Below, piece by piece: positions 4,856-33,565 of a DNA stretch of 64,000 bases. Source of the stretch: the human T2T-CHM13v2.0 reference genome, Homo sapiens. The DNA lies in the NCBI RefSeq assembly GCF_009914755.1, contig NC_060935.1. One strand, written 5' to 3'. Under the pieces are notes generated by a model, which saw only the letters and a program-made list of their open reading frames with translations, was not told the DNA's origin and searched no databases. The position numbers and the translations under genes are program-made. How positions within the stretch are numbered: position 1 is the stretch's first letter; every line of letters starts with the position of its first letter.

Positions 4856-5329
4856 GGGAGAGGTTCCTGGCAGGAGTTCCTGTCAGATGCCATTTTCCAT
4901 TCTGGTTACTTGAACCGGGGTCCTTTTTCATCCTCTACCTCAGGGGCCAGAGCTTCCTCATCACCCTGCACCCCCTAGCAAGGGAGGTGCCCGCTACACG
5001 GTCCAAAGTCCTCTCCAGACATTCGGGCCCTGCCCGCCTTGCTGGAGGGCTCAGGAGTTCACCAGGTTTGCTTCCAGAAGAGCCAGGCTGGGGATGCCTG
5101 CTTGCAAATGCAGCAAATAAAAAATAAATAAATAAATAAAAATCACCTTTCTCCCCACCCCCACCCAAATGTAAAATGAGCCGACAGCCTGTCCCTCGGC
5201 TATGTCAGATACTGCTTTCCGCACAATATCTTGGTTTTACATTATTTTGCAACGGCCTCTTCCCACTTAATCCATCCTGAACACACTTCTTGAATGTTCT
5301 ACCCCGGCAGGGATGCGCATTCTCAGGAA

Positions 5330-6140: not shown

Positions 6141-9100
6141 GGTGTAGTTGTGGGGGAGGAAGTGGCTAGCTCAGGGCTTCAGGGGACAGACAGGGAGAGA
6201 TGACTGAGTTAGATGAGACTAGGGGGCGGGCTGGGGGTGCGAGAAGGAAGCTTGGCAAGGAGACTAGGTCTAGGGGGACCACAGTGGGGCAGGCTGCATG
6301 GAAAATATCCGCAGGGTCCCCCAGGCAGAACAGCCACGCTCCAGGCCAGGCTGTCCCTACTGCCTGGTGGAGGGGGAACTTGACCTCTGGGAGGGCGCCG
6401 CTCTTGCATAGCTGAGCGAGCCCGGGTGCGCTGGTCTGTGTGGAAGGAGGAAGGCAGGGAGAGGTAGAAGGGGTGGAGGAGTCAGGAGGAATAGGCCGCA
6501 GCAGCCCTGGAAATGATCAGGAAGGCAGGCAGTGGGTGCAGGGCTGCAGGAGGGCCGGGAGGGCTAATCTTCAACTTGTCCATGCCAGCAGCCCCTTTTT
6601 TTCCAGACCAAGGGCTGTGAACCCGCCTGGGGATGAGGCCTGGTCTTGTGGAACTGAACTTAGCTCGACGGGGCTGACCGCTCTGGCCCAGGGTGGTATG
6701 TAATTTTCGCTCGGCCTGGGACGGGGCCCAGGCCGGGCCCAGCCTGGTGGAGCGTCCAGGTCTGGGTGCGAAGCCAGGCCCCTGGGCGGAGGTGAGGGGT
6801 GGTCTGAGGAGTGATGTGGAGTTAAGGCGCCATCCTCACCGGTGACTGGTGCGGCACCTAGCATGTTTGACAGGCGGGGACTGCGAGGCACGCTGCTCGG
6901 GTGTTGGGGACAACATTGACCAACGCTTTATTTTCCAGGTGGCAGTGCTCCTTTTGGACTTTTCTCTAGGTTTGGCGCTAAACTCTTCTTGTGAGCTCAC
7001 TCCACCCCTTCTTCCTCCCTTTAACTTATCCATTCACTTAAAACATTAGCTGGTCATCTGGTAAGCCCGGGACAGTAAGCCGAGTGGCTGTTGGAGTCGG
7101 TATTGTTGGTAATGGTGGAGGAAGAGAGGCCTTCCCGCTGAGGCTGGGGTGGGGCGGATCGGTGTTGCTTGCCTGCAGAGAGGGTGGGGAGTGAATGTGC
7201 ACCCTTGGGTGGGCCTGCAGCCATCCAGCTGAAAGTTACAAAAATGCTTCATGGACCGTGGTTTGTTACTATAGTGTTCCTCATGGCGAGCAGATGGAAC
7301 CGGGAGACATGGAGTCCCTGGCCAGTGTGAGTCCTAGCATTGCAGGAGGGGAGACCCTGGAGGAGAGAGCCCGCCTCAATTGATGCCTGCAGATTGAATT
7401 TCCAGAGGCTTAGGAGGAGGAAGTTCTCCAATGTTCTGTTTCCAGGCCTTGCTCAGGAAGCCCTGTATTCAGGAGGCTACCATTTAAAGTTTGCAGATGA
7501 GCTTATGGGGGGCAATCTTAAAAAGTCCACAGCAGATGCATCCGGCTCGAGGGGCCATCAGCTTTGAATAAATGCTTGTTCCAGAGCCCATGAATGCCAG
7601 CAGGCACCCCTCCTTTCCTGGGGTAAAGGTTTTCAGATGCTGCATCTTCTAAATTGAGCCTCCGGTCATACTAGTTTTGTGCTTGGAACCTTGCTTCAAG
7701 AAGATCCCTAAGCTGTAGAACATTTTAACGTTGATGCCACAACGCAGATTGATGCCTTGTAGATGGAGCTTGCAGATGGAGCCCCGTGACCTCTCACCTA
7801 CCCACCTGTTTGCCTGCCTTCTTGTGCGTTTCTCGGAGAAGTTCTTAGCCTGATGAAATAACTTGGGGCGTTGAAGAGCTGTTTAATTTTAAATGCCTTA
7901 GACTGGGGATATATTAGAGGAAGCAGATTGTCAAATTAAGGGTGTCATTGTGTTGTGCTAAACGCCGGGAGGGTACAAGTTGGTCATTCCTAAATCTGTG
8001 TGTGAGAAATGGCAGGTCTAGTTTGGGCATTGTGATTGCATTGCAGATTACTAGGAGAAGGGAATGGTGGGTACACCGGTAGTGCTCTTTTGTTCTTGCT
8101 TCGTTTTTTTAAACTTGAACTTTACTTCGTTAGATTTCATAATACTTTCTTGGCATTCTAGTAAGAGGACCCTGAGGTGGGAGTTGTGGGGGACGGGGAG
8201 AAGGGGACAGCTTGGCACCGGTCCCGTGGGCGTTGCAGTGTGGGGGATGGGGGTATGCAGCTTGGCACTGGTACTGGGAGGGATGAGGGTGAAGAAGGGG
8301 AGAGGGTTGGTTAGAGATACAGTGTGGGTGGTGGGGGTGGTAGGAAATGCAGGTTGAAGGGAATTCTCTGGGGCTTTGGGGAATTTAGTGCGTGGGTGAG
8401 CCAAGAAAATACTAATTAATAATAGTAAGTTGTTAGTGTTGGTTAAGTTGTTGCTTGGAAGTGAGAAGTTGCTTAGAAACTTTCCAAAGTGCTTAGAACT
8501 TTAAGTGCAAACAGACAAACTAACAAACAAAAATTGTTTTGCTTTGCTACAAGGTGGGGAAGACTGAAGAAGTGTTAACTGAAAACAGGTGACACAGAGT
8601 CACCAGTTTTCCGAGAACCAAAGGGAGGGGTGTGTGATGCCATCTCACAGGCAGGGGAAATGTCTTTACCAGCTTCCTCCTGGTGGCCAAGACAGCCTGT
8701 TTCAGAGGGTTGTTTTGTTTGGGGTGTGGGTGTTATCAAGTGAATTAGTCACTTGAAAGATGGGCGTCAGACTTGCATACGCAGCAGATCAGCATCCTTC
8801 GCTGCCCCTTAGCAACTTAGGTGGTTGATTTGAAACTGTGAAGGTGTGATTTTTTCAGGAGCTGGAAGTCTTAGAAAAGCCTTGTAAATGCCTATATTGT
8901 GGGCTTTTAACGTATTTAAGGGACCACTTAAGACGAGATTAGATGGGCTCTTCTGGATTTGTTCCTCATTTGTCACAGGTGTCTTGTGATTGAAAATCAT
9001 GAGCGAAGTGAAATTGCATTGAATTTCAAGGGAATTTAGTATGTAAATCGTGCCTTAGAAACACATCTGTTGTCTTTTCTGTGTTTGGTCGATATTAATA

Positions 9101-9844
9101 ATGGCAAAATTTTTGCCTATCTAGTATCTTCAAATTGTAGTCTTTGTAACAACCAAATAACCTTTTGTGGTCACTGTAAAATTAATATTTGGTAGACAGA
9201 ATCCATGTACCTTTGCTAAGGTTAGAATGAATAATTTATTGTATTTTTAATTTGAATGTTTGTGCTTTTTAAATGAGCCAAGACTAGAGGGGAAACTATC
9301 ACCTAAAATCAGTTTGGAAAACAAGACCTAAAAAGGGAAGGGGATGGGGATTGTGGGGAGAGAGTGGGCGAGGTGCCTTTACTACATGTGTGATCTGAAA
9401 ACCCTGCTTGGTTCTGAGCTGCGTCTATTGAATTGGTAAAGTAATACCAATGGCTTTTTATCATTTCCTTCTTCCCTTTAAGTTTCACTTGAAATTTTAA
9501 AAATCATGGTTATTTTTATCGTTGGGATCTTTCTGTCTTCTGGGTTCCATTTTTTAAATGTTTAAAAATATGTTGACATGGTAGTTCAGTTCTTAACCAA
9601 TGACTTGGGGATGATGCAAACAATTACTGTCGTTGGGATTTAGAGTGTATTAGTCACGCATGTATGGGGAAGTAGTCTCGGGTATGCTGTTGTGAAATTG
9701 AAACTGTAAAAGTAGATGGTTGAAAGTACTGGTATGTTGCTCTGTATGGTAAGAACTAATTCTGTTACGTCATGTACATAATTACTAATCACTTTTCTTC
9801 CCCTTTACAGCACAAATAAAGTTTGAGTTCTAAACTCATTAGAA
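6110..9844 (+). ncRNA. NEAT1: NEAT1_1 (MEN-epsilon), ~3.7-kb polyadenylated lncRNA isoform
   Basis: Recognised 5' sequence GGAGTTAGCGACAGGGAGGGATGCGCGCCTGG; AATAAA at 9815-9820 gives ~3.7 kb. Exact cleavage base is approximate. Confidence 0.95.
8590..8738 (+). repeat. Copy B of the ~170-bp direct repeat (copy A at 4681-4855)
   Basis: tgacacagagtcaccagttttccgagaa...gaaatgtctttaccagctt...ggttgttttgtttggggtgtgggtgtta. Confidence 0.85.
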
Positions 9845-9862
9845 TTGTTGTATTGCTATGTT
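9646..9862 (+). terminator. NEAT1_1 cleavage/polyadenylation module (isoform switch)
   Basis: Five TGTA (CFIm motif) at 9646, 9661, 9705, 9743, 9773; ACTAAT (QKI-type) at 9755 and 9784; TCCCCTT (hnRNPK-type) 9799-9805; AATAAA 9815-9820; GU-rich downstream element 9845-9862. Confidence 0.9.

Positions 9863-32862: not shown

Positions 32863-33565
<703 letters not shown>

What the first reader, a model, noticed from the sequence alone, without database searches (positions are those of the whole stretch)
9783..9838. A textbook 3' splice site is fused to the NEAT1_1 poly(A) signal
Seen: TACTAAT (9783-9789, near-optimal branch point, A9788), a 15-nt pyrimidine tract (9792-9806), ACAG| (9807-9810), then AATAAA four nt later, then a small hairpin TGAGTT-CTA-AACTCA (9824-9838). 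Established: these bases are usually described separately as QKI (ACUAAY) and hnRNPK (UCCCCUU) sites; SF1 and QKI recognise the same motif; U2AF/U2 snRNP couple to CFIm/CPSF in terminal-exon definition. Inference: the NEAT1_1/NEAT1_2 switch may be a decoy acceptor where SF1/U2AF/U2 compete with QKI, hnRNPK and CPSF, making paraspeckle output sensitive to spliceosome status.
Basis: partly seen in the sequence, partly recalled or inferred. Interest (0 to 1): 0.72.

Follow-up and report, generated by a model that had tools for sequence, protein, structure and literature searches.

The report
NEAT1 short-isoform poly(A) site module
The stretch is the known, heavily regulated poly(A) site that ends the short NEAT1 RNA; its published QKI and hnRNPK binding sites together really do spell a consensus-grade 3' splice site, but nothing yet shows that the splicing machinery uses or senses it.

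Summary
The composite is not trivial. It is the only one of 9,499 AG dinucleotides in the window with TACTAAY, a long pyrimidine tract and YAG. A strict version of the pattern occurs once in the whole genome, here, although a reversed control pattern also hits once.

The parts are already explained in print. The ACUAAY motifs are QKI-5 response elements that promote use of this poly(A) site (PMC11367543). The pyrimidine stretch is the hnRNPK repressor site (review PMC6357021). UGUA repeats upstream bind CFIm.

Mouse oligos printed in PMC7025509 show the ACUAAC core, tract, ACAG and AATAAA kept, with branch-to-AG spacing of 21 nt against 22 nt. The hairpin is weak and is not kept in mouse.

No annotated exon starts at 9811, and an exon there would be only 28-34 nt long. 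SF1 binding to these ACUAA elements is already floated in eLife 2026 (PMC13004596). U2AF or U2 engagement remains untested.

Verdict: a known element, a real resemblance, and an open but testable decoy hypothesis.

The parts
9646..9776 (+). Cluster of five UGUA motifs (starts at 9646, 9661, 9705, 9743, 9773). This is the upstream CFIm (NUDT21/CPSF6) binding cluster of the NEAT1_1 poly(A) site.
   Evidence: Positions. The CFIm role comes from PMC7025509 and PMC6357021 passages, which cite Naganuma 2012. That paper is not held.
9755..9760 (+). First ACUAAU core: QKI response element, and also an SF1-type branch motif.
   Evidence: PMC11367543 reports three overlapping QREs just upstream of the PAS under the strongest QKI eCLIP peak, and mutating them lowers cleavage.
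9779..9782 (+). UAAU half-site. It lies 18 nt after the first core and directly before the second.
   Evidence: The bipartite rule ACUAAY-(1-20 nt)-UAAY is quoted in PMC11367543.
9783..9789 (+). UACUAAU: second QKI core, and a near-consensus branch-point heptamer with the branch-type A at 9788, 22 nt before G9810.
   Evidence: The mouse oligos have CACTAAC at the matching place (aligned by eye).
9792..9806 (+). 15-nt pyrimidine tract holding UCCCCUU (9799-9805). This is the published hnRNPK repressor site, and it reads as a polypyrimidine tract.
   Evidence: The hnRNPK role comes from PMC6357021 and PMC7025509 passages. The mouse tract is 14 nt with one U-to-C change (by eye).
9807..9810 (+). 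ACAG: the first AG after the branch-like A. It is a would-be acceptor whose exon would begin at 9811. No function has been shown.
   Evidence: Kept in mouse. No exon starts at 9811 in the hub's RefSeq table.
9815..9820 (+). AAUAAA poly(A) signal of NEAT1_1.
   Evidence: Annotated transcript ends at 9838 and 9844 lie 18 and 24 nt downstream (hub table). PAS deletion switches output to NEAT1_2 (PMC11367543, PMC7025509).
9824..9838 (+). Small 6-bp hairpin ending at the annotated cleavage site. Probably chance.
   Evidence: -4.1 kcal/mol alone, not significant in context. The arms are not kept in the mouse oligo (by eye).
9845..9862 (+). GU/U-rich stretch just after the cleavage site. It is a downstream element of the kind that CstF binds (role recalled, not from a call).
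   Evidence: TTGTTGT at 9845; TGTA at 9849.

Best explanation
Bases 9646-9862 are the canonical, regulated poly(A) site that makes NEAT1_1 and so gates read-through to the paraspeckle scaffold NEAT1_2. CFIm on the UGUA cluster and CPSF on AAUAAA drive cleavage at 9838-9844. A QKI-5 dimer on the paired ACUAAU cores and the UAAU half-site raises use of the site. hnRNPK on the C-rich pyrimidine stretch lowers it.

QKI shares its motif with SF1, and hnRNPK sits on a pyrimidine tract. The two regulator sites side by side therefore read as branch point plus polypyrimidine tract, and the next AG completes a consensus-grade 3' splice site. On this reading the resemblance is a by-product. In cells the site is held by QKI, hnRNPK and the cleavage machinery, and it is not used as an acceptor.

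Shown in print: the QKI and hnRNPK effects and the role of the PAS. Inferred: that the AG and the splice-site likeness have no function of their own.
For: - The motif anatomy is as expected for a poly(A) site: five UGUA upstream, AAUAAA, a GU-rich stretch downstream, and annotated ends 18 and 24 nt after the hexamer (hub table).
- PMC11367543: the strongest QKI eCLIP peak on NEAT1 lies on three QREs just upstream of the PAS. QKI-5 knockdown or exon 7c deletion lowers NEAT1_1 and raises NEAT1_2. Mutating the QREs in a 941-bp reporter raises uncleaved transcripts.
- hnRNPK binds the pyrimidine stretch between the CFIm cluster and the PAS and blocks NEAT1_1 processing (PMC6357021; PMC7025509).
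- No exon begins at 9811 in the RefSeq table. An exon there would be 28-34 nt long, with AAUAAA only 4 nt after the AG.
- PMC13004596: at RAI14, paired ACUAAC branch sites bound by QKI exclude SF1 and are not used. This is a direct analogue of the paired cores here.
- Genome-wide, the loose composite is hardly commoner than a reversed control, 154 against 117. There is no sign of a selected class of such fusions.
Against: - The composite is unusually complete. It is 1 of 9,499 AGs in the window and the only strict match in 3.1 Gb.
- The ACAG and the branch-to-AG spacing (21 against 22 nt) are kept in mouse, although neither is needed for the published QKI or hnRNPK roles (aligned by eye, two species only).
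- U2 snRNP-related proteins and SF1 do associate with NEAT1, and their eCLIP signal is said to favour its 5' terminal region (bioRxiv 10.1101/2023.05.21.541661).
- RBM10 levels shift the isoform ratio (PMC9636673). RBM10's role as a splicing factor linked to 3' splice sites is recalled. The binding region given is only low-resolution.
- QRE mutagenesis cannot tell QKI from SF1, since both read ACUAA.
- After CDK7 or MED1 knockdown some junctions do reach into the NEAT1_1 region. Their coordinates were not visible to me.
Confidence: 0.6

Rival explanations
1. Decoy acceptor, or an upstream element bound by splicing factors. SF1 binds the ACUAAU cores, U2AF65/35 (or PTBP1) binds the tract and AG, and perhaps U2 snRNP follows. 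They compete with QKI and hnRNPK. Through the known U2AF65-CFIm and SF3b-CPSF contacts, or through U2AF65 inhibition of poly(A) polymerase, they raise or lower use of the NEAT1_1 poly(A) site. The isoform ratio then tracks free spliceosome components.
For: - All four sequence requirements of a U2-type acceptor are met, with no intervening AG.
- The layout is kept in mouse.
- SF1 and QKI compete for ACUAA, and the authors themselves say SF1 might bind the NEAT1 elements (PMC13004596).
- The review PMC2874999 lists several precedents. U2AF65 on a pyrimidine tract recruits CFIm 59/25. SF3b contacts CPSF. U2AF35/65 act on the prothrombin upstream element. U2AF65 acts on the poly(A)-limiting element and as a poly(A) polymerase inhibitor when bound upstream of AAUAAA. 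U2 snRNP helps 3' end formation on intronless histone pre-mRNAs.
- SF1, SF3B4, SF3A3, U2AF2 and PTBP1 were found among NEAT1-associated proteins.
Against: - No call places any of these proteins on 9783-9810.
- The only functional data for the cores (QKI-5 loss phenocopies QRE mutation) and for the tract (hnRNPK) are explained without them.
- With AAUAAA 4 nt after the AG, U2AF and CPSF would probably clash rather than cooperate (inference).
- At the RAI14 dual site QKI wins outright over SF1.
- The sign of the predicted effect is undetermined, since the precedents go both ways.
Confidence: 0.27
2. A genuine acceptor used at low level. AG9810 is spliced to an upstream donor: GGUAAGA at 9748 (a 62-nt mini-intron), the donor at 6695, or FRMD8 read-through donors. 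This gives rare isoforms that lose the QKI and hnRNPK sites but keep AAUAAA.
For: - Acceptor quality by tract and branch motif equals or exceeds 4 of the 6 annotated acceptors in the window on pyrimidine count.
- A strong 5' splice-site-like GGTAAGA lies 62 nt upstream.
- RefSeq read-through models show that donors at 82 and 6695 are used with acceptors inside or just before NEAT1 (hub table; one search shows those sites).
- Junctions reaching the NEAT1_1 region appear after CDK7 or MED1 knockdown.
Against: - No annotated exon starts at 9811.
- The terminal exon would be 28-34 nt long.
- A 62-nt intron is near or below the usual human minimum (recalled).
- The GGTAAGA is absent from the mouse oligo (by eye).
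- PMC9591066 saw no splicing within the NEAT1_1 region in its main datasets.
Confidence: 0.08
3. Pure coincidence of motifs with no function at all.
For: The reversed control pattern also hits once genome-wide. The loose composite occurs 154 times against 117 for the control. The site was picked after the fact.
Against: Published mutagenesis and knockouts show that the cores, the tract and the PAS are functional. The block is about 89% identical in mouse (by eye).
Confidence: 0.03

Closest known systems
NEAT1_1 alternative poly(A) site with its CFIm, hnRNPK, QKI-5 and TDP-43 regulators (Naganuma 2012 as cited; Zakutansky 2024, PMC11367543; Modic 2019, PMC6561722)
   Same: It is this very element: UGUA cluster, pyrimidine stretch, QREs and AAUAAA, in the described order and place.
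   Different: None of the passages I read describes the QRE, tract and AG together as a 3' splice site. The nine literature searches that ran and bore on this turned up no such statement. Among the passages I read, the nearest is one sentence on SF1 in PMC13004596.
RAI14 intron 10 dual ACUAAC branch sites under QKI/SF1 competition (PMC13004596)
   Same: Two ACUAA cores sit close together upstream of a pyrimidine tract and AG. QKI binds with high affinity, and QKI-bound RNA pulls down NONO, SFPQ and PSPC1.
   Different: RAI14 is a real intron whose branch sites are used when QKI is absent. Here the AG is followed 4 nt later by a poly(A) signal, no exon is known, and the read-out is cleavage rather than exon inclusion.
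Upstream sequence elements bound by splicing factors (prothrombin F2 element with U2AF35/65; PTB on beta-globin and C2) and the poly(A)-limiting element bound by U2AF65
   Same: A pyrimidine-rich element just upstream of a poly(A) signal that can recruit 3' splice-site factors and changes 3' end processing (PMC2874999; PMC6242934; abstract of PMC2724285 in the listing).
   Different: Binding of U2AF or PTB here is not shown. Those elements have no branch-point heptamer. Details of the poly(A)-limiting element sequence are recalled, as the primary papers are not held.
U1 snRNP at a cryptic 5' splice site upstream of the bovine papillomavirus late poly(A) signal
   Same: A splice-site-like motif in a terminal region that regulates polyadenylation without splicing (PMC2874999). 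A GGTAAGA lies 67 nt before this AAUAAA.
   Different: It concerns the other splice-site type. The NEAT1 motif is untested and is not kept in the mouse oligo.

Membership tests
Canonical mammalian poly(A) site | AAUAAA hexamer with cleavage 10-30 nt downstream | tested here: met
   AATAAA at 9815-9820. Annotated ends at 9838 and 9844 (hub table).
Canonical mammalian poly(A) site | Upstream UGUA (CFIm) motifs and a downstream GU/U-rich element | tested here: met
   Five TGTA between 9646 and 9773; TTGTTGT at 9845.
U2-type 3' splice site (functional acceptor) | Branch-point motif 18-40 nt upstream, polypyrimidine tract, YAG, and no AG in between | tested here: met
   TACTAAT with A9788 22 nt from G9810, a 15-nt tract, and CAG. 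It is the only one of 9,499 AGs with all of these.
U2-type 3' splice site (functional acceptor) | An observed or annotated exon starting after the AG | tested here: not met
   No RefSeq exon starts at 9811 (hub table). PMC9591066 reports no splicing within the NEAT1_1 region in its main datasets. Raw junction data could not be searched.
U2-type 3' splice site (functional acceptor) | A downstream exon of workable length | tested here: not met
   The distance to the cleavage site is 28-34 nt, and AAUAAA starts 5 nt after the AG.
U2-type 3' splice site (functional acceptor) | Binding of SF1, U2AF and U2 snRNP | not testable with these tools
   No CLIP data are at hand. There is only a general statement that U2-related eCLIP favours the NEAT1 5' terminal region.
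QKI response element | ACUAAY core with a UAAY half-site within 1-20 nt | tested here: met
   ACTAAT at 9755 and 9784; TAAT at 9779, 18 nt after the first core. The rule is quoted.
QKI response element | QKI binding and QKI-dependent effect | not testable with these tools
   Reported in PMC11367543: eCLIP peak, QKI-5 loss, QRE mutation. Not re-tested here.
hnRNPK (KH-domain) C-rich site | C-rich pyrimidine stretch between the CFIm cluster and the PAS | tested here: met
   TCCCCTT at 9799-9805 within the tract. The binding claim comes from reviews of Naganuma 2012; the primary paper is not held.
Splicing-factor-bound upstream element or poly(A)-limiting element | Pyrimidine-rich element upstream of the PAS that binds U2AF or PTB and changes cleavage or tail length | tested here: inconclusive
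   The sequence requirement is met. Binding and effect were not testable.

The most novel reading that the evidence does not exclude
The NEAT1_1 poly(A) site is built on a conserved, complete but unusable 3' splice site. Early spliceosome factors (SF1 on UACUAAU, U2AF on the tract and AG, then SF3b/U2) compete with QKI and hnRNPK for the same 28 bases. Through their known contacts with CFIm, CPSF and poly(A) polymerase they set how often Pol II reads through into NEAT1_2. Paraspeckle number then reports the availability of free 3' splice-site factors. The GGUAAGA 62 nt upstream may add a U1 input.
Probability: 0.25. Interest if true: 0.65.

Novelty: already known. Interest (0 to 1): 0.38.

Why it matters
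The NEAT1_1/NEAT1_2 choice decides whether paraspeckles form, and it is altered in stress, differentiation, cancer and neurodegeneration. If 3' splice-site factors read this module, it would link spliceosome load or spliceosome mutations (SF3B1, U2AF1) directly to paraspeckle output. It would also explain why U2-related proteins sit on an unspliced RNA. If they do not, the site is still a clean natural example of how QKI and hnRNPK sites together mimic an acceptor. In that case published QRE mutagenesis should be interpreted with SF1 in mind.

Tried and rejected
- **Hairpin 9824-9838 as a functional structure.** Rejected. It is weak, not significant in context, and its arms are not kept in the mouse oligo (by eye).
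- **A genome-wide class of splice site-poly(A) signal fusions.** Rejected. The strict pattern gives 1 hit against 1 for the control. The loose pattern gives 154 against 117. That excess is too small to claim a class, and the hits could not be annotated.
- **Multi-species conservation through Rfam.** The three NEAT1 families match 6585-6704, 6950-7054 and 7272-7430 only. None covers the poly(A) site.
- **Mammalian genomes.** None other than the window's own assembly is reachable with these tools. Conservation therefore rests on one species.
- **Papers not held.** Naganuma 2012, Gu and Schoenberg 2003 and Gu 1999. Their content is cited only through other papers or as recalled.
- **Searches for spliceosome drugs or mutants changing the isoform ratio**. 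Only the Takakuwa preprint came up, where the drugs were used on paraspeckle-speckle segregation and not on the isoform ratio. PMC6390101 was irrelevant.
- **In vitro U2AF2 iCLIP on NEAT1**. The search found one review and no data.

Full report
**Observation.** They are TACTAAT at 9783-9789, a run of 15 pyrimidines at 9792-9806, ACAG at 9807-9810, four bases CACA, AATAAA at 9815-9820, and the inverted repeat TGAGTT-CTA-AACTCA at 9824-9838. The A at 9788 lies 22 nt before G9810, and no other AG intervenes.

- a second ACTAAT at 9755
- a TAAT at 9779
- five TGTA between 9646 and 9773
- TCCCCTT at 9799-9805
- a GT-rich stretch from 9845

**Is it more than chance?** Within the window I scanned all 9,499 AGs, 4,675 on + and 4,824 on -. 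Only AG9810 has all of the following: TACTAAY 15-44 nt upstream, at least 14 of 16 pyrimidines at -5 to -20, a pyrimidine run of at least 12, and a pyrimidine at -3. With the looser branch motif CTRAY, 8 of 9,499 qualify, 4 per strand. The pyrimidine count for AG9810 is 15 of 16. The six annotated acceptors in the window score 10, 11, 15, 16, 11 and 12.

In the whole T2T assembly the strict composite (ACTAAY, 1-4 nt, 14 pyrimidines, NYAG, 2-6 nt, AATAAA) occurs once, here, and the tool's reversed control also occurs once. A loose composite occurs 154 times against 117 for the control. The arrangement is therefore rare. There is no good sign that the genome selects for it as a class, and the pattern was defined after seeing this site.

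The hairpin folds at -4.1 kcal/mol alone (z -2.95). In 71-nt and 141-nt context the fold is no better than shuffles, with z -0.72 and -0.06.

**What the bases are known to be.** The hub table puts the ends of NEAT1 short-isoform and FRMD8 read-through transcripts at 9844 and 9838, which is 24 and 18 nt after the hexamer. Several papers cover this site.

- *Poly(A) site and hnRNPK.* Passages of PMC7025509 and the review PMC6357021 state that NEAT1_1 is made by CFIm-dependent cleavage at this poly(A) signal. They also state that hnRNPK binds the short pyrimidine stretch between the CFIm cluster and the signal, blocks processing, and so yields NEAT1_2. Both cite Naganuma 2012, which is not held.
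- *QKI.* PMC11367543 (passages and all of section 7) reports three overlapping QKI response elements just upstream of the signal, under the strongest QKI eCLIP peak on NEAT1. Loss of nuclear QKI-5 lowers NEAT1_1 and raises NEAT1_2. Mutating the elements in a 941-bp reporter raises uncleaved RNA.
- *TDP-43.* PMC6561722 adds TDP-43 on GU-rich motifs more than 100 nt upstream.

Each half of the 'splice site' thus already has a tested non-spliceosomal reader.

**Conservation.** No other mammalian genome is reachable with these tools, and the three Rfam NEAT1 families cover only 6585-7430. The methods of PMC7025509 do print guide and donor oligos spanning the mouse Neat1 signal.

At the matching place the mouse has, in order:
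- CACTAAC
- CA
- a 14-nt pyrimidine tract
- ACAG
- CAA
- AATAAA

Over human 9784-9821 I count 34 of 38 identical positions, with two pyrimidine-to-pyrimidine changes and two single-base deletions. Branch-to-AG spacing is 21 nt against 22 nt. The flanks are visibly less alike. The hairpin arms and the GGTAAGA at 9748 are not kept.

The known functions already account for most of the constraint. PMC11367543 says the mouse region lacks the predicted QKI elements, whereas the oligos show that the ACUAAC core is present. The difference probably lies in the strict bipartite definition.

**Evidence on the decoy idea.** Points in its favour:
- PMC13004596 shows that SF1 and QKI compete for ACUAA branch sites. 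It also states that SF1 might bind the NEAT1 elements, so that part is already in print as a speculation.
- The review PMC2874999 lists contacts that could transmit such binding to the cleavage machinery. These are U2AF65 with CFIm 59/25, SF3b with CPSF, U2AF35/65 on the prothrombin upstream element, U2AF65 on the poly(A)-limiting element, and U2 snRNP on intronless histone pre-mRNAs.
- The same review notes that U2AF65 bound upstream of AAUAAA can inhibit poly(A) polymerase. The sign of any effect is therefore open.
- The preprint 10.1101/2023.05.21.541661 finds SF1, SF3B4, SF3A3, U2AF2 and PTBP1 among NEAT1-associated proteins. It says U2-related eCLIP favours the 5' terminal region, but gives no positions.
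- PMC9636673 reports that RBM10 levels shift the isoform ratio, with a binding region given only at kilobase resolution.

Points against it:
- At RAI14 the paired cores are held by QKI and SF1 is excluded.
- No annotated exon starts at 9811.
- An exon there would be 28-34 nt long, with the signal 4 nt after the AG, so U2AF and CPSF would probably exclude each other (inference).

**Verdict.** The element is the known NEAT1_1 poly(A) site with its CFIm, QKI and hnRNPK inputs.

| Reading | Probability |
|---|---|
| The splice-site likeness follows from placing a QKI site beside an hnRNPK tract and has no function of its own | about 0.6 |
| Real but rare acceptor | about 0.08 |
| Pure coincidence | about 0.03 |

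In the listings of the nine literature searches that ran and bore on this, and in the passages I read, I found no statement that the QKI core, tract and AG together form a 3' splice site at this signal. These searches cover only the held open-access library.

Noticed in passing
window 9748-9810: GGTAAGA (GT at 9749) is a strong 5' splice-site-like motif 62 nt before AG9810. As a result 9749-9810 reads as a complete 62-nt mini-intron holding both ACUAAU cores and the tract. GGTAAG occurs 11 times on the + strand of the window and twice in NEAT1_1. By eye it is absent from the mouse oligo. U1 snRNP at a cryptic 5' site upstream of a poly(A) signal is a known repressor in bovine papillomavirus.
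   Followed up: partly
window 6585-6704 and 6950-7054: Rfam NEAT1 conserved region 1 ends in GGGUGGUAUGUAAU, which is the donor at 6695/6696 used in a FRMD8 read-through model. Conserved region 2 begins 11 nt after the matching acceptor at 6939. The two conserved blocks therefore flank a usable intron inside 'unspliced' NEAT1 (hub table).
   Followed up: no
window 8410-8430: A second TACTAAY (8410) in NEAT1_1 is followed 15 nt later by GTAAGT (8425). This is another pairing of branch-like and donor-like motifs.
   Followed up: no
mouse Neat1 poly(A) region (oligos in PMC7025509): PMC11367543 states that the mouse region lacks the predicted QKI elements. The printed mouse oligos nonetheless carry an ACUAAC core at the homologous place and an ACUAAA further upstream (by eye).
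   Followed up: partly
whole window: AATAAA occurs 76 times on both strands against 31 expected from shuffles. Many copies lie in tandem A-rich runs, such as 5116-5140 and 33265-33282, which are probably repeat tails.
   Followed up: no
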